From the sequence record OZ346158.1: 64,000 nucleotides of DNA. One strand, written 5' to 3'. Position 1 is the first letter of the stretch. Each line of letters opens with the position of its first letter. Positions 1,439-55,568 of this stretch are shown here, in pieces. Both the position numbers and the translations under genes were made by a program. The notes under the pieces were generated by a model. That model saw only the letters and a program-made list of their open reading frames with translations. It was not told the DNA's origin and searched no databases. Origin of the DNA: a phage.

Positions 1439-3510
1439 TGGCAACAGCTGTTTTTAAACCTTACCGTGATTACTCTACAATGGCTGCACAGTTTCATTAC
1501 CGCACAGTTCAGGATACTGCCGTTCCTGGTAGAGATTATGATCATGTTGAGGGCGATGTAACTATCCCAGTTGGGGCAACCAGTATTGAGATCCCAGTGG
1601 AAATTGTTGACAAATTACCCAACAGGTTGCCAAGAAGCTTCTTTATGGAGTTTTCATCAAAATCTCAAGGAGTGATGATTGGAACACAAAGGGCGAAATG
1701 TACAATAGTTTCAGATGAGAATCTTGACAGGATATCTTGGGATACTGTTGAGGAGAGAATGTTTCACCCAAGATATTGGGTTACAACCACTCAGCAGACT
1801 GAAAGTACCTGTATTGTTGCAGATAACAACTGTTGTATTAACCGTTTAGTGTCAAGAACATATGGAGGTATGGCTGGGTGCATTTGGGAAACAGTTGACA
1901 AGTATGACCATTTCGGTATTGGGTTTGATGATCACTATGAGATGAGAAACACCAAGCTTTGGTTCAGAATGTCAATAACCAACGCCAGCAACTTCTCCAC
2001 TCCTGAAAAGATGATTATGACTGTAGACCTTGTTGATGGCACAATCATCTATGTTCCTTTAGCTCAATATGCTGTCAGCATCTCAGAGGATAAAAATGTT
2101 GCAGAAATTCATATTGATTTTGAGGACTGCGTCGGGATGGACCAGAACAACAACATGATGGGTGTTGATCCTCGGCAGGTGAGAAGGATTTTAATACCAC
2201 TTATGCCTAAAGACTGGGTAAGTAATAGCACAGATCCAAGAACGGAAAATGTAGAGTGTGAGTTGCGCCTAGATCTGCTTCAGCCAGACACAGGCTGGAA
2301 AATGATGCAACTTAATAATATCCAGGTGAGAGAGCACGACGTTGGGATCTGCACCGCATATGACGATATGTGGAACGTGTCCCCTTTAAGGGTGTTGAAC
2401 AATATCAAGCGTCTGGGCTATACCGGAACCATAAACCATTATGTTGGTATGAGTCATTATTATGACTACACATGGTCAGGAACCCAATGGTCTATAAACA
2501 GAACAGGAGCGCTAAACGCTGCAGCTTATAAATGGCATGATGATTTTATGTACAATGCCAAACGACATAACTTCGACGTTATGCAATCTGTAAGTTTTGA
2601 GCTTTTCAGCGATGCCTGCCCGTTGGAATGGACCCAAAGAGACTGGAACGATAACTACGCTAAAACAGGGTATACACCTTGTAGCTACCTCCTGTCTCCA
2701 ACCATTGAAGAGGGTATGAATTTCCTTACTGCAGTATTTAAGAATTTTGCATCAGCCGCTATGAGAAACAACCTGCCAGTGATTATGCAGGTTGGTGAAC
2801 CGTGGTGGTGGTACAATACCGATACTCGTAGACCTTGTATTTATGATTACCCTACAAAGCAGGCGTTTTATGATGAGACAGGTGAGTATGCATTAGATAT
2901 TGGGACTATTGACGATCCTAAAACTGGCGGTGTTTACGACAAGTATGTAGCATTTTGTCGTGGTAAGCTTGGCGCTCGTATTGCTGCTATTTCAAAGGCA
3001 ATAAAGGCACACGCTGCATCAGCTCAGATGACAGCTCTGCTGTTTTTCCCAACCATTATGGAAACCGAGCTTACGCAAAAGCTTAACCTTGCTGACCAAT
3101 ATAAAAAGGAAGCAGGTGCTCTTGATTTCTTCTGCACCGAGTGCTACGATTGGGTGATGCAGGGAGGTATTGAAAAGGCAAAAGAGTCTGTAAACATACC
3201 TATCGTTAAGTTAGGTTGGCAACCGTCTGAAATACAATACCTTGCAGGGTTCGTTCCTAGTAAAGAGCTTGCTCCGGTATATGGTTACGACCCAACTAGG
3301 AATTACCAAGAATTTTTATGGAGATGTATTTGCGGAAACATGGCAACTATAGAGTATAGATACCCTGAGGTAAAACAGTATGTGTGGGCATACCCGCAAG
3401 TAATGTCTGACAGCATCACTGTTACCGCTAGAGATTCTACCGTGCTTCATATGGGGCAGGTTGCTCTGAAAGGGTATGTAGAAGATGTTGTCCCGCCAGA
3501 CTTCTCATAA
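1438..3510 (+). CDS. hypothetical large virion protein (690 aa)
   Basis: Long uninterrupted ORF, GGAGGG RBS, translationally coupled to upstream gene; function not recognisable. Confidence 0.65.
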   Translation: MATAVFKPYRDYSTMAAQFHYRTVQDTAVPGRDYDHVEGDVTIPVGATSIEIPVEIVDKLPNRLPRSFFMEFSSKSQGVMIGTQRAKCTIVSDENLDRISWDTVEERMFHPRYWVTTTQQTESTCIVADNNCCINRLVSRTYGGMAGCIWETVDKYDHFGIGFDDHYEMRNTKLWFRMSITNASNFSTPEKMIMTVDLVDGTIIYVPLAQYAVSISEDKNVAEIHIDFEDCVGMDQNNNMMGVDPRQVRRILIPLMPKDWVSNSTDPRTENVECELRLDLLQPDTGWKMMQLNNIQVREHDVGICTAYDDMWNVSPLRVLNNIKRLGYTGTINHYVGMSHYYDYTWSGTQWSINRTGALNAAAYKWHDDFMYNAKRHNFDVMQSVSFELFSDACPLEWTQRDWNDNYAKTGYTPCSYLLSPTIEEGMNFLTAVFKNFASAAMRNNLPVIMQVGEPWWWYNTDTRRPCIYDYPTKQAFYDETGEYALDIGTIDDPKTGGVYDKYVAFCRGKLGARIAAISKAIKAHAASAQMTALLFFPTIMETELTQKLNLADQYKKEAGALDFFCTECYDWVMQGGIEKAKESVNIPIVKLGWQPSEIQYLAGFVPSKELAPVYGYDPTRNYQEFLWRCICGNMATIEYRYPEVKQYVWAYPQVMSDSITVTARDSTVLHMGQVALKGYVEDVVPPDFS

Positions 3511-48739: not shown

Positions 48740-49200
48740 ATTTCTAAAATGGATTTCCTCCTTTTGATATTTTACCTACCAGGATATTTTAAAATCCTTA
48801 GAAAATCAGAAAATGGATCGAAAACTAAAATGGATTTTTCAGAGCAGGCACGACGAGATGAACCACTCATCCTATCGTCTGCACCATATTCCAGACCACC
48901 ATTACAGATTTCCCGCACATGCTCACATCCTTCTACTAGAACTTCCCCCACTTACCCTTGACCTTTTATAGTAATAATCCAACCACTACCTTGAAGTTGT
49001 GGCGCAGCTTTCCAAGTACTCGATCTGTTTTTCGTTTCAAAGATTTAATTTTCTGAAAATTTTTCTCGATAAATTTCTCAGTACTCGATCTGTTTTTCGT
49101 TTTCTGAATCGGATTTTCTGGAAATCGTTCCGGCTCTCGACCTGAAATTTTTGGGGACGAAATCGATTTTTCGTTTTCAGAAATGGATTTTTAAAATTTC
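48740..49200. repeat. iteron-like direct repeats in non-coding region
   Basis: AGTACTCGATCTGTTTTTCGTTT at 49015 and 49080 (65-bp spacing), related CGATTTTTCGTTTTCAG at 49163; several AAAATGGAT copies between 48745 and 49190. Confidence 0.6.
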
Positions 49201-50711: not shown

Positions 50712-51107
50712 ATGAATAAGAACGTACGCCGCATCATGAACGAACTGGCAAACGATGAAAAAATTATTGACATGCATTTAGTCAACATTTGCCGCCGTTG
50801 TGTAACATATAACAACCGCGCCGCAAAAGCGCGTGAGATGAACGCAAAAGGCACCTTAAAGCCCTTTCAGGTGGTTGTAAAATCTATAACCAGTGCAGCA
50901 GGCCAGGCGCATGACCACAACAACGGGAGCACTAATATTGATCCGTCTTACGTAATGAAACGGATCCGGACTTGCAAGAATAAAGAGCAGGTGTATAATG
51001 TCATAGACTGGTTGGATTCTATGGGCGATGTGGTTTACAATAGGTTTTCTGCAGCTATCGAGATCCAGCTTGACAGGTTGGACGGTAAAGTACTGAAAAC
51101 TTACTAA
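50712..51107 (+). CDS. hypothetical protein
   Basis: ATG after AAAGGAAAAAAG; upstream TTGACA-16-TAAACT and leader hairpin GGCGGGAA-TGTT-TCCCGCC. Confidence 0.5.
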   Translation: MNKNVRRIMNELANDEKIIDMHLVNICRRCVTYNNRAAKAREMNAKGTLKPFQVVVKSITSAAGQAHDHNNGSTNIDPSYVMKRIRTCKNKEQVYNVIDWLDSMGDVVYNRFSAAIEIQLDRLDGKVLKTY

Positions 51108-51155
51108 GATTATTTTTAGATGGCCTTGACTTCAGGGCCATCAATAAAGTAAACT
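51105..51155 (+). repeat. 51-bp intergenic element, copy 1 (hairpin ATGGCC-TTGACTTCAG-GGCCAT)
   Basis: TAAGATTATTTTTAGATGGCCTTGACTTCAGGGCCATCAATAAAGTAAACT starting at the stop codon; identical copy at 51736, diverged copy at 55475. Confidence 0.8.
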
Positions 51156-51187
51156 AATCCCAGTTAAGCGAAAAAGGAGGCTTGAAG

Positions 51188-51307
51188 ATGAGCACTACAC
51201 GCCAACACACAAAGGTAACGATTATCGTTTGCATCATTGGTTACATCCTGGCGCAAATGTTGATGGGTAGCGCCAATGATTTCGCAAAATTTTTCTTAGA
51301 CTTTTAA
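51188..51307 (+). CDS. small membrane peptide (39 aa)
   Basis: AAAAAGGAGG RBS; hydrophobic core VTIIVCIIGYILAQMLM. Confidence 0.4.
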   Translation: MSTTRQHTKVTIIVCIIGYILAQMLMGSANDFAKFFLDF

Positions 51308-51335
51308 TTGACAAGCTAACTTAAATCAGTATAAT
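51308..51335 (+). promoter_or_regulatory. sigma70-like promoter TTGACA-16-TATAAT
   Basis: Consensus -35 and -10 hexamers, then leader hairpin and RBS for gene 51388. Confidence 0.6.
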
Positions 51336-51387
51336 ACTAAGCACATAAACGGGAAAACTTCCCAGAACACCAAAAGGAGAAAACATT

Positions 51388-51738
51388 ATGAATACTTCCA
51401 TCACTATGACCGCCGAAGAAAAAGCCCTGCAGATCGCCGCTCTGAAAAAACAGATTGCAGAACTTGAAGACAAGATCGACAATTTTGAAATCGACGAAGA
51501 CAAGTACGACGATAAATATGATGAATGGTTAGACGAGATCTACGGCGAAATTATGATCGGAAACATTTCTTTTCTTCCGTCGCGTATCCTCAAGGAGCTA
51601 GATCCTATCGCTTACCGCTGCGGATTTAGCGACTACATCGACAGCCTGGATATTGAGGACGATGAAGAATACCAGGAATTACAGACAGAGTTAGAAGAAG
51701 CAAAAGAAGAGCTTGCAGAACTGGAAGAAAACGAGTAA
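51388..51738 (+). CDS. highly acidic coiled-coil protein (candidate DNA mimic)
   Basis: 116 aa dominated by D/E (e.g. DIEDDEEYQELQTELEEAKEELAELEENE); AAAAGGAGAAAA RBS; own promoter. Confidence 0.6.
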   Translation: MNTSITMTAEEKALQIAALKKQIAELEDKIDNFEIDEDKYDDKYDEWLDEIYGEIMIGNISFLPSRILKELDPIAYRCGFSDYIDSLDIEDDEEYQELQTELEEAKEELAELEENE

Positions 51739-51786
51739 GATTATTTTTAGATGGCCTTGACTTCAGGGCCATCAATAAAGTAAACT
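51736..51786 (+). repeat. 51-bp intergenic element, copy 2
   Basis: Identical to 51105..51155; begins at stop codon of 51388..51738. Confidence 0.8.
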
Positions 51787-51827
51787 TTATACTGTTAACA
51801 CTGAACTAATGCATAGGAGTTAAAACC

Positions 51828-52073
51828 ATGGCAGCACTAATCACCAAATATTATGCCCCTACCAACACCAAAAGCGCCCGTATCATGGTAAAAGGCTTCG
51901 GACGTAAAAAGGTGTACACCTGGGATTATGCCTTAGACACGGAAGACAACTACACCAACGCGATGACCGATTTTATTAATGATCTGAACACGCGGATCTT
52001 GACAAATTATAAAATTACCGATATTGCCTATATAGGGGAAGGCGGGATCTGTTTTGTCGGTATCGTCAAATAA
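51828..52073 (+). CDS. hypothetical protein
   Basis: 81 aa, RBS GGAGTTAAAACCATG. Confidence 0.5.
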   Translation: MAALITKYYAPTNTKSARIMVKGFGRKKVYTWDYALDTEDNYTNAMTDFINDLNTRILTNYKITDIAYIGEGGICFVGIVK

Positions 52074-52148
52074 GCTGTTTTTTCGGTGGTCCTGGTAGCA
52101 GGGCCATCTATAAAGATAGTTTATCAATACAATGAAAGGAGAAAGTAC

Positions 52149-53266: not shown

Positions 53267-53890
53267 ATGACCACCGTTAACATTACCACAGGTTGCAATT
53301 TATCTTTCGACGTGCTGACCGACGAACAAAAAGAAAAAGCTATTGAAATGGTCCGCGAAAGAGAAGAACACAGCGGAGAGGATTTTTTCGCAGAAAGTGT
53401 AATTGAATATTATAAAGAACAAGTTTTTCCAGAGTACGGCCTTGAAGATACCGATGTACATTGGTCCGGCTTTTGGTGTCAAGGCGATGGCGCGTCAATT
53501 AATGCTGAAAATGTAGACTTAGAGAAATTCTTGCGTAAAGTCAAGGCCCTGACCAAGTTCCGATCAATTCGTCACTTGTTCGGCACAATGCACGATGGCG
53601 AACTATCAGCCAGTGTTGAACGCGACAAGTACAGCCATTACAGCCATGAAAACACTGTAAGCGGATATATTGATACTACCTGGCTAGATCTGACCGCAAA
53701 ACAAGAAAATAAAGTAGAAGATCTGGAAGAGCTGATCACCGAGACGGTACGGGAGCTATCCCGCAAGGTTTATGTAGACCTGGAGGAGGCCTATCTTGAA
53801 CAGTTTACTACCGAAAACCTGATCGGCCTTATTGAAGCCAATGATTGGCGGTTTGATGTGGATGAATATGGAGAAATGAGTTTTTCATAA
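53267..53890 (+). CDS. hypothetical acidic protein (207 aa)
   Basis: AATAGGAGAAAA RBS; acidic composition; own promoter. Confidence 0.55.
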   Translation: MTTVNITTGCNLSFDVLTDEQKEKAIEMVREREEHSGEDFFAESVIEYYKEQVFPEYGLEDTDVHWSGFWCQGDGASINAENVDLEKFLRKVKALTKFRSIRHLFGTMHDGELSASVERDKYSHYSHENTVSGYIDTTWLDLTAKQENKVEDLEELITETVRELSRKVYVDLEEAYLEQFTTENLIGLIEANDWRFDVDEYGEMSFS

Positions 53891-55276: not shown

Positions 55277-55477
55277 ATGAGCAACAATATCCGCGTTATT
55301 AACTTCAAAAAAGAAGAAAAAATTGCCGTGCTGATTGACGGTCAAGAAATCTTTAAAGGTGATTATGAAGATCATCAAACGGCGATTAGTATCACTCGCG
55401 TGATTGGTTACCATAATTTTTACCCTCAAGGCGCTGAGGCAGCAGTAAAACGAATTAAAGAGATTGTAGGCCTGTAA
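55277..55477 (+). CDS. hypothetical protein
   Basis: 66 aa, AAAAGGAGAAACAAAATG RBS. Confidence 0.5.
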   Translation: MSNNIRVINFKKEEKIAVLIDGQEIFKGDYEDHQTAISITRVIGYHNFYPQGAEAAVKRIKEIVGL

Positions 55478-55525
55478 AATTTATTTTTAGATGGCCTTGA
55501 CTCCAGGGCCATCAATAAAGTAAAT
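55475..55525 (+). repeat. 51-bp intergenic element, copy 3 (diverged)
   Basis: TAAAATTTATTTTTAGATGGCCTTGACTCCAGGGCCATCAATAAAGTAAATT. Confidence 0.75.
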
Positions 55526-55568
55526 TTAAACCCTGTTAAAATAATCAGTGCAAAAAGGAGTAATGATC

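What the first reader, a model, noticed from the sequence alone, without database searches (positions are those of the whole stretch)
51388..51738. Strongly acidic coiled-coil early protein, candidate DNA mimic
The 116-aa product is dominated by Asp/Glu with helical heptad character and sits behind a consensus TTGACA-16-TATAAT promoter. This resembles known DNA-mimic anti-restriction proteins such as Ocr in composition only.
Basis: inference. Interest (0 to 1): 0.45.

Follow-up and report, generated by a model that had tools for sequence, protein, structure and literature searches.

The report
Acidic early accessory protein, rV5-like phage
This is a real, very acidic small gene of an rV5-like E. 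coli phage, carried on a dispensable cassette with its own strong host-type promoter; it belongs to a large uncharacterised family seen almost only in virulent phages, matches the anti-restriction protein Ocr in size and charge but not in sequence or fold, and its target is unknown.

Summary
ORF 51388-51738 (+) encodes 116 aa with 37 Asp/Glu, net charge -27 and pI about 3.7. It is the most acidic ORF in the window and sits behind an exact TTGACA-16-TATAAT promoter.

The window is a Vequintavirus, 99.9% identical to phage JeffSchatz/Bas55. The gene is bas55_0106, the ortholog of rv5_gp187.

It is not simply a coiled coil. Heptad helices at both ends flank a roughly 50-residue helix/beta-hairpin/helix/helix core (YDEWLDE...SRILKELDPIAYRCGFSDYIDS). 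Only the core is conserved. It defines a family of at least 3,457 50%-identity clusters, mostly 55-140 aa, every one acidic. The family was found almost only in virulent phages.

There is no sequence or fold relationship to Ocr, ArdA or any solved structure, although size and charge match Ocr almost exactly.

The gene lies on a 631-bp cassette bounded by perfect 51-nt hairpin repeats. The cassette is cleanly absent in phage phiWec189, so the gene is accessory.

My best reading is a stoichiometric acidic decoy for a nucleic-acid-binding host protein. This is inferred and the target is unknown. A type I R-M/BREX target is possible, but published plating data do not discriminate.

The parts
51105..51155 (+). 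Left copy of a 51-nt intergenic direct repeat. It overlaps the stop codon of the upstream gene and forms the left boundary of the 631-bp cassette.
   Evidence: It is 100% identical to the copy at 51736-51786. Further copies lie at 55476 (90%) and 52071 (69%).
51188..51307 (+). Small hydrophobic ORF of 39 aa (MSTTRQHTKVTIIVCIIGYILAQMLMGSANDFAKFFLDF), the first gene of the cassette. It is probably a small membrane peptide.
   Evidence: It is annotated as bas55_0105 and rv5_gp188. It has no Pfam hit.
51308..51335 (+). Sigma-70-type promoter TTGACA-16 nt-TATAAT, an exact consensus, starting directly after the stop codon of the small ORF.
   Evidence: It matches 12 of 12 positions. Two exact copies occur in 64 kb against 0.02 expected. 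rV5 annotates it as promoter P192.
51374..51379 (+). Shine-Dalgarno sequence AAGGAG, 8 nt upstream of the ATG.
   Evidence: Read directly from the sequence.
51388..51738 (+). Coding sequence of the 116-aa acidic protein (bas55_0106, rv5_gp187, PHROG 9294).
   Evidence: The AF2 model has mean pLDDT 89.
51412..51480 (+). N-terminal amphipathic heptad helix, residues 9-31. It is an extension found in some family members but not most.
   Evidence: AF2 predicts helix H9-31. Six of 7 a/d positions are hydrophobic. Most family members lack it.
51496..51645 (+). Conserved core domain, residues 37-86: helix, beta-hairpin, helix, helix. The motif is YDEWLDE...SRILKELDPIAYRCGFSDYIDS.
   Evidence: Alignments A1-A4. 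D72, A75, Y76 and G79 are invariant. D45, E46, D49, E50, E70, D82 and D85 are acidic in at least 86% of sequences. The core-only AF2 model has pLDDT 88.5.
51664..51729 (+). C-terminal glutamate-rich amphipathic helix, residues 93-114. This is the local form of the acidic tail typical of the family.
   Evidence: AF2 predicts helix H93-114. Six of 6 a/d positions are hydrophobic, and 10 of the 16 residues off the a/d seam are Glu. Across the family, C-terminal tails have median length 22 aa, 40% acidic and 3% basic.
51736..51786 (+). Right copy of the 51-nt repeat, overlapping the stop codon. It contains a 10-bp hairpin (GATGGCCTTG ACTT CAGGGCCATC, about 51750-51773). It is a probable 3'-end or processing structure and the right boundary of the cassette.
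   Evidence: The RNA fold has free energy -21.1 kcal/mol and z = -5.3. Phage phiWec189 has a single copy at the empty site.

Best explanation
The gene encodes a non-essential, early-expressed accessory protein of a virulent rV5-like phage.

The protein has a compact conserved core of about 50 residues that displays a conserved stripe of carboxylates. A strongly acidic C-terminal helix follows the core. I infer that this helix packs against an N-terminal helix to form a short antiparallel stalk.

The most likely mode of action is stoichiometric. The protein would act as a negatively charged decoy, a nucleic-acid mimic in the broad sense. It would dock through the conserved core motif onto the basic nucleic-acid-binding surface of a bacterial protein and block it soon after infection. 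That would be a counter-defence or host-takeover function.

Shown here: the gene, promoter, composition, family, predicted fold, accessory status and restriction to virulent phages. Inferred: early timing, decoy binding and the class of target. The target itself is unknown.
For: Expression signals:
- An exact sigma-70 consensus promoter and a strong ribosome-binding site. The same promoter is annotated in rV5.
- The gene lies in a long same-strand array of small hypothetical genes.

Acidity is selected, not incidental:
- All 255 small homologs examined carry net charge between -42 and -3, with a median of -19.
- Core positions D45, E46, D49, E50, E70, D72, D82 and D85 are acidic in 86-100% of sequences.
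- On helix 37-52 the acidic pairs 41/42, 45/46 and 49/50 recur once per turn, opposite the hydrophobic residues Y40, Y44, W47, L48 and I51. This is read from the sequence plus the AF2 helix assignment.
- C-terminal tails across the family are 40% acidic and 3% basic.

A specific interface is implied:
- The motif SRILKELDPIAYRCGF is nearly invariant between phages of Proteobacteria and Actinobacteria and marine metagenomes.

Accessory status:
- The 631-bp cassette is bounded by perfect 51-nt repeats.
- It is precisely absent in phiWec189, which keeps one repeat copy.

Early or leading-region position in an independent lineage:
- The T7-like Providencia phage PS3 carries two paralogs within its first 3.2 kb, downstream of annotated sigma-70 promoters, one of which lies directly upstream of gp02.

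No sign of an enzyme or structural role:
- No Pfam, NCBIfam or PADLOC family reaches threshold.
- No neighbouring gene is conserved across lineages.
Against: - No binding partner, phenotype or expression timing has been measured.
- Many small phage proteins are acidic without being mimics.
- The sharply conserved motif, which includes conserved basic residues R66, K69 and R77, could serve a function unrelated to mimicry.
- The family is almost absent from plasmids and bacterial genomes. Anti-restriction mimics such as ArdA are, to my knowledge, widely shared with plasmids and conjugative elements, so this distribution is atypical for them.
Confidence: 0.45

Rival explanations
1. Functional analog of Ocr. 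The protein would be a DNA mimic that specifically blocks type I restriction-modification enzymes, and possibly BREX.
For: - Size and charge nearly match T7 Ocr: 116 aa and net -27, against 117 aa and net -28, both with pI about 3.7.
- It has a consensus early promoter.
- In the T7-like phage PS3, family paralogs are among the first early genes, where T7-like phages carry ocr or a SAM hydrolase. No Pfam Ocr or SAMase is detectable among the first eight PS3 genes.
- Bas55 plates at 0.11-0.61 on EcoKI (12 sites) and 0.52-1.44 on EcoCFT_I (6 sites). In the same assays lambda-vir (5 EcoKI sites) plates at 3e-5 and P2vir (6 EcoCFT_I sites) at 9e-4.
Against: - There is no sequence or fold similarity to Ocr or ArdA.
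- Insensitivity to type I R-M is shared by phi92-like phages Bas60-62, by N4 and by Bas63. tblastn found no homolog in Escherichia phages outside Vequintavirus. The phenotype therefore does not track the gene.
- The family is absent from 72,556 plasmids, apart from one mislabelled phage genome.
- The BASEL authors attribute weak type I restriction to the rarity of recognition sites.
Confidence: 0.12
2. Not a mimic. The conserved core would be a protein-protein adaptor or regulator that acts through its hydrophobic/aromatic motif. Examples would be a modulator of host RNA polymerase, a protease or a phage replication factor. The negative charge would serve solubility or disorder rather than imitation of nucleic acid.
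For: - The strongest conservation falls on non-acidic residues: Y44, L48, S65, L68, P73, A75, Y76, G79 and the basic residues K69 and R77.
- The family is restricted to virulent phages, as expected for host takeover rather than for defence evasion shared with plasmids.
- No neighbouring gene is conserved.
Against: - Acidic positions in the core are conserved as strongly as the structural ones: D72 at 100%, E70 at 99%, E50 at 97%.
- Not one of 255 small homologs is neutral or basic.
- Acidic tails recur in lineages whose tails are otherwise unrelated.
Confidence: 0.25
3. Protein delivered with the DNA, or virion-associated (an internal or ejection-type accessory protein, or an acidic assembly chaperone), rather than a protein expressed early from the incoming genome.
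For: In some metagenomic phage contigs, two tandem copies of the core form the N-terminal module of long modular ORFs. These are 211-837 aa, with segments joined by a recurring AETF[G/E]A junction. One is a genuine 837-codon ORF on a 145-kb contig. The architecture recalls processed polyvalent or internal proteins; that comparison is from my own knowledge. Scaffolding proteins are often acidic and helical.
Against: - In this phage the gene is a stand-alone 116-aa ORF with its own sigma-70 promoter. It sits in the small-gene array, and no structural gene is annotated in the 16 kb around it.
- It has no N-terminal leader resembling the AETFGA junction.
- It is dispensable in phiWec189.
Confidence: 0.08
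4. Divalent-cation-binding mini-protein. The conserved carboxylates would chelate Ca2+ or Mg2+.
For: The best profile hit in the PDB is the first EF-hand region of recoverin. The stretch YDEMLDE...DPxAY aligns to WYQSFLKEC...DPKAYA.
Against: - That hit has E = 0.76, which is chance level.
- The sequence has no canonical DxDxDG loop.
Confidence: 0.04

Closest known systems
T7 Ocr (gp0.3), a DNA-mimic inhibitor of type I R-M and BREX
   Same: Nearly identical length, net charge and pI: 116 aa and -27, against 117 aa and -28, both about 3.7. Both are largely helical. Both are phage genes behind host-type early promoters. Both end in a Glu-rich C-terminus.
ArdA (PF07275), the plasmid and transposon DNA-mimic anti-restriction protein
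   Same: An acidic protein expressed early by an invading element.
   Different: No Pfam ArdA hit among those shown. ArdA is widespread on plasmids and conjugative elements (my own knowledge). This family matched only one of 72,556 plasmid records, and that record is a mislabelled Vequintavirus genome.
PHROG 9294, with related PHROGs 9396 and 37123 (phage protein families of unknown function)
   Same: The protein is a clear member of PHROG 9294 (E = 1.3e-51). The core also matches 9396 and 37123. Stand-alone marine homologs match the same three families.
   Different: These families carry no functional annotation. The Vequintavirus members add N- and C-terminal heptad helices to the shared core.
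Other small acidic phage inhibitors that imitate nucleic acid, such as T7 gp5.9 (RecBCD, MukBEF), T4 Arn and SPO1 Gp46. Named from my own knowledge and from titles listed.
   Same: The general kind: small, very acidic proteins from virulent phages, acting early, each with its own fold.
   Different: No sequence or structural match to any solved protein. The target is unknown. This family is far more widespread across host phyla than those single-lineage examples.

Membership tests
Ocr family (Pfam PF08684) | Sequence homology to T7 gp0.3 | tested here: not met
   Ocr is not among the best 25 of 32 Pfam hits at E up to 10. BLASTP against T7 Ocr gives E = 0.5. hhalign of the family profile against Ocr gives probability 0.14%.
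Ocr family (Pfam PF08684) | Ocr fold: a helical bundle dimer shaped like bent B-DNA | tested here: not met
Ocr family (Pfam PF08684) | Small size, pI about 4 or below, and roughly 30% acidic residues | tested here: met
   116 aa, 31.9% D/E and net -27, against Ocr at 117 aa, 29.1% and net -28.
Ocr family (Pfam PF08684) | Inhibits type I R-M and BREX in vivo or in vitro | not testable with these tools
   Only phage-level plating data exist, and they do not single out this gene.
ArdA (Pfam PF07275) | Sequence homology to ArdA | tested here: not met
   ArdA is not among the Pfam hits shown. There is no PDB sequence hit.
DNA-mimic proteins (a functional class) | Strong net negative charge that is conserved in relatives | tested here: met
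   All 255 small homologs carry net -42 to -3. Core acidic columns are conserved at 86-100%. Tails are acidic.
DNA-mimic proteins (a functional class) | Surface carboxylates spaced like the phosphates of B-DNA | tested here: inconclusive
   Only a sequence-level inference was possible: acidic pairs once per turn on helix 37-52 and a Glu-covered C-terminal helix.
DNA-mimic proteins (a functional class) | Binds a DNA-binding protein in competition with DNA | not testable with these tools
   This needs pull-down or competition assays.
PHROG 9294 | Significant full-length match to the family profile | tested here: met
   E = 1.3e-51, covering residues 5-116 against profile positions 2-119 of 127.
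Phage accessory gene cassette with its own promoter | Own promoter, presence/absence polymorphism among close relatives, and discrete boundaries | tested here: met
   Promoter. Flanking 51-nt perfect repeats. An exact empty site in phiWec189.
Coiled-coil protein | Heptad repeats with hydrophobic a/d positions over most of the chain | tested here: inconclusive
   The heptads are good in residues 9-31 and 93-114. The central 50 residues form a compact domain with a beta-hairpin. Whether the helices pair within or between chains could not be modelled.

The most novel reading that the evidence does not exclude
The conserved 50-residue acidic core defines a new, very widespread class of phage-encoded nucleic-acid-mimicking inhibitors that is essentially confined to virulent phages. 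It would act on a target conserved from Proteobacteria to Actinobacteria, such as a universal DNA-binding, repair or defence protein. Vequintavirus gp187 would be a stalk-bearing variant. In some phages the same module would be delivered as part of long modular proteins.
Probability: 0.3. Interest if true: 0.65.

Novelty: new member of a known kind. Interest (0 to 1): 0.4.

Why it matters
Small acidic early proteins have repeatedly turned out to be inhibitors of bacterial immunity or of core DNA machinery; Ocr, ArdA and gp5.9 are examples.

This one represents a family of thousands of sequence clusters with no annotation and no solved fold. It has a sharply conserved motif and was found almost only in virulent phages. 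Finding its target would annotate a sizeable piece of phage dark matter and could reveal a broadly conserved host vulnerability.

rV5-like phages are common in phage-therapy collections. It is therefore useful to know that this gene is a dispensable cassette with natural deletion variants, because those variants make the function directly testable.

Tried and rejected
**Family libraries**
- Pfam, NCBIfam and PADLOC scans of the protein gave only sub-threshold coiled-coil noise: GvpG, FlxA, SbcC-like and LmuB. I rejected these as compositional.
- Some database names for orthologs or homologs look like products of the same noise: 'gas vesicle protein GvpG', 'chromosome segregation ATPase', 'Zn-ribbon protein', 'SH3 domain protein' and 'phosphonoacetaldehyde hydrolase'.

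**Structure and sequence against the PDB**
- Sequence and profile searches found nothing significant. The best hit was the recoverin EF-hand region at E = 0.76, which I rejected.
- BFVD returned only uncharacterised phage proteins.
- The afdb50 library was unavailable.

**Fusions and context**
- Long proteins containing the core have no Pfam domains.
- Gene neighbourhoods in marine contigs, PAK_P5, PS3 and MAG contigs share nothing but the family gene itself.

**Phenotype and literature**
- I tried to use BASEL plating data as evidence for a type I anti-restriction function. I rejected this as non-discriminating, because phages without a detectable homolog behave the same way.
- Literature searches for a characterised homolog, or for a Vequintavirus anti-defence gene, found nothing relevant.

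**Other checks**
- Rfam has no match for the flanking hairpin repeat or anywhere else in the window.
- The window contains no second paralog.

Full report
**Identity of the window and the gene**

The region around the finding is 99.9% identical to Escherichia phage JeffSchatz (Bas55, MZ501082). This is a Vequintavirus, a virulent rV5-like myovirus of about 136 kb. The ORF at 51388-51738 (+) is annotated there as bas55_0106, 'hypothetical protein'. It sits in an uninterrupted same-strand array of more than 40 small hypothetical genes. In the reference phage rV5 the ortholog is rv5_gp187 (ORF 192), with an annotated sigma-70 promoter 'P192' directly upstream.

**Check of the observation**

- The ORF encodes 116 aa with 37 Asp/Glu (31.9%) and 10 Lys/Arg, giving net charge -27. 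The calculated pI is about 3.7.
- It is the most acidic of 202 ORFs of at least 50 aa in the window.
- TTGACA-16-TATAAT lies at 51308-51335 and matches 12 of 12 positions. Only two exact copies occur in 64 kb, against 0.02 expected.
- An AAGGAG ribosome-binding site lies 8 nt upstream of the ATG.
- Residues 9-31 and 93-114 have clean heptads, with 6 of 7 and 6 of 6 hydrophobic a/d positions.

**Anatomy**

AlphaFold2 with a 136-sequence alignment gives a confident model, with mean pLDDT 89 and pTM 0.66. The elements are helix 9-31, helix 37-52, a beta-hairpin at 55-62, helices 64-71 and 73-86, and helix 93-114.

Alignment of distant homologs shows that only residues about 37-86 are conserved outside Vequintavirus. 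The consensus is YDExLDE..G.v.igg..F..SRiLKELDPIAYRCGF.DY.DS. D72, A75, Y76 and G79 are invariant in the 130-sequence core alignment. Y44, D49, S65, L68, E70, P73 and D82 exceed 90%. A core-only model is equally confident, with pLDDT 88.5.

**The family**

- A profile of the core finds at least 2,795 proteins in the 90%-identity clustered collection. It finds 3,457 representatives of 50%-identity clusters at E up to 0.001, of which 1,240 are at E up to 1e-10.
- Most of the best-scoring members shown are stand-alone proteins of about 55-140 aa. None of those listed with precomputed Pfam annotation has any domain, and they carry no informative name.
- They match PHROGs 9294, 9396 and 37123, all of unknown function.
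- Cultured phages carrying the family include Vequintavirus and large Vibrio, Klebsiella, Salmonella and Acinetobacter phages. They also include Pseudomonas PAK_P-type phages, a T7-like Providencia phage, Clavibacter CMP1 and Gordonia BrutonGaster.
- The family is essentially absent from 72,556 plasmids. The single hit is a 137.6-kb record that carries an identical copy of the core and is evidently a Vequintavirus genome.
- It is also essentially absent from one genome per 185,579 prokaryotic species. Only two MAG contigs matched, using one narrow peptide pattern.
- It therefore appears to be a gene of virulent phages.
- Wherever context was examined, the gene sits among small unannotated genes, and no neighbour is conserved between lineages.
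- In the T7-like phage PS3, two paralogs (gp02 and gp05) lie within the first 3.2 kb of the genome, downstream of annotated sigma-70 promoters, one directly upstream of gp02. This is the early, first-entering region.

**Acidity is a selected trait**

All 255 small homologs inspected are acidic, with net charge from -42 to -3 and a median of -19.

Within the core, D45, E46, D49, E50, E70, D72, D82 and D85 are acidic in 86-100% of sequences. On helix 37-52 the acidic pairs recur once per turn, opposite the hydrophobic face. C-terminal tails after the core have a median length of 22 aa and are 40% acidic and 3% basic. In the target, 10 of the 16 residues off the hydrophobic a/d seam of the C-terminal helix are glutamate.

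**Comparison with known DNA mimics**

The protein matches T7 Ocr in length, charge and pI almost exactly. There is still no homology. BLASTP gives E = 0.5, hhalign gives probability 0.14%, and neither Ocr nor ArdA is among the Pfam hits shown.

**Phenotypic literature**

The BASEL study states that Vequintavirinae are 'exceptionally susceptible' to R-M systems and seem to lack effective protection. Its raw data are more nuanced.

| Phage | System (recognition sites) | Efficiency of plating |
|---|---|---|
| Bas55 | EcoKI, type IA (12) | 0.11-0.61 |
| Bas55 | EcoCFT_I, type IB (6) | 0.52-1.44 |
| Bas55 | EcoRI (38) | about 1e-3 |
| Bas55 | EcoRV (98) | essentially 0 |
| Bas55 | EcoCFT_II, type III (306) | 0 |
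| Bas55 | EcoP1, type III (218) | about 1e-3 |
| lambda-vir | EcoKI (5) | 3e-5 |
| P2vir | EcoCFT_I (6) | 9e-4 |

This is the pattern a type-I-specific anti-restriction function would give. All twelve BASEL Vequintaviruses behave alike. However, so do phi92-like phages, N4 and a FelixO1-like phage, and tblastn found no homolog in Escherichia phages outside Vequintavirus.

**The cassette**

- The gene, its promoter and a preceding 39-aa hydrophobic ORF form a 631-bp unit bounded by two perfectly identical 51-nt direct repeats, at 51105-51155 and 51736-51786.
- Each repeat overlaps the stop codon of the preceding gene and folds into a 10-bp GC-rich hairpin, with free energy -21.1 kcal/mol and z = -5.3.
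- Two further copies lie after other genes, at 52071 and 55476.
- Phage phiWec189 has the left flank, one repeat copy and the right flank, and lacks the unit entirely.
- The gene is therefore accessory and dispensable for plaque formation on a laboratory host. The repeat is the likely recombination substrate for its gain or loss.

**Explanation and confidence**

I commit, at about 0.45, to the following reading. The protein is an early accessory protein that acts stoichiometrically as an acidic decoy. It would dock through the conserved core and block the nucleic-acid-binding surface of a bacterial protein.

The rivals are:

- a specific Ocr-like block of type I R-M or BREX (0.12);
- a non-mimic adaptor or regulator acting through the conserved motif (0.25);
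- a delivered or virion-associated protein (0.08), prompted by long modular ORFs with tandem cores and recurring AETF[G/E]A junctions in some metagenomic phages;
- metal binding (0.04).

**Novelty and score**

The gene is already deposited as a hypothetical protein and sits in a PHROG of unknown function. What is new here:

- the family-level picture: a conserved acidic mini-domain with an acidic tail, found almost only in virulent phages and without a solved fold;
- the cassette structure, with a natural empty site;
- the clear negative result on Ocr and ArdA membership.

It is best filed as a probable new member of the known kind 'small acidic phage inhibitor or decoy'. Interest is moderate (0.4). 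The family is large and experimentally tractable, but nothing in the evidence is yet surprising to a specialist.

Noticed in passing
window 51105-51155, 51736-51786, 52071-52121, 55476-55526: A 51-nt intergenic element occurs four times, always on the + strand at the end of a gene. Two copies are 100% identical; the others are 90% and 69%. It folds into a 10-bp GC-rich hairpin (-21.1 kcal/mol, z = -5.3) with no U-tract and carries TTGACT in the stem-loop. It has no Rfam match. It may be a transcript-end or processing site, and it appears to be the recombination site for cassette gain or loss.
   Followed up: partly
L015 (phiWec189, LC739538) 1465-1610, compared with window 51060-51830: This natural Vequintavirus isolate has an exact empty site: left flank, one repeat copy, right flank. 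It lacks both the small hydrophobic ORF and the acidic gene. Phage 'ime' (MN850576) also matches only the last 60 bases of the 701-base query.
   Followed up: yes
L016 4001-6514 (P0175, 837 aa); also P0168-P0173: Long modular ORFs in metagenomic phage-like contigs (one of 145 kb) begin with two tandem copies of the acidic core. Unrelated segments follow, joined by a recurring AETF[G/E]A junction, and the C-terminus is hydrophobic. No Pfam domains were found. These could be processed polyproteins or polyvalent proteins.
   Followed up: partly
L010 (Providencia phage PS3, NC_048148) 1683-1886 and 2931-3131: This T7-like phage carries two paralogs of the family among its first early genes, downstream of annotated sigma-70 promoters. 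No Pfam-detectable Ocr or SAM hydrolase is present among the first eight genes.
   Followed up: partly
window 53267-53890 (+): A second strongly acidic protein lies 1.5 kb downstream: 207 aa, net charge -26, PHROG 5162 of unknown function. It has no Pfam, PADLOC or PDB match. It is as good a candidate anti-defence or decoy protein as the target.
   Followed up: partly
window 49006-49191: An ORF-poor stretch contains three or so tandem copies, 65-74 nt apart, of a T-rich element of roughly 50 nt.
   Followed up: no
BASEL S1 Data and S5 Table (PMC8594841), phage-level: Vequintaviruses, phi92-like phages, N4 and a FelixO1-like phage plate at about 0.1-1 on two type I R-M systems. Bas55 and N4 do so despite 5-12 recognition sites. 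Lambda and P2 are restricted 1,000- to 30,000-fold with 5-6 sites. This suggests unidentified type I evasion mechanisms in several virulent phage groups.
   Followed up: partly
Database records MG0656xx ('Campylobacter phage') and CP057073 ('E. coli plasmid'): Seventeen records labelled as Campylobacter phages are 92-95% identical to this E. coli Vequintavirus region. A 137.6-kb 'plasmid' carries an identical copy of the core. These are likely contamination or mislabelling.
   Followed up: no
Homologs P0045, P0119, P0124: Some family members replace the acidic helical tail with a short Cys-rich segment (CPxC...CC) that looks like a small zinc ribbon, followed by an acidic run.
   Followed up: no
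Annotations of orthologs and homologs (P0035, P0027, P0036, P0039; phages JLBYU08 and SSBI34): Source names such as 'gas vesicle protein GvpG', 'Zn-ribbon protein', 'SbcCD ATPase subunit', 'phosphonoacetaldehyde hydrolase' and 'SH3 domain protein' look like artefacts of coiled-coil or compositional similarity. GvpG scores 20 bits against a cut-off of 30.6.
   Followed up: partly
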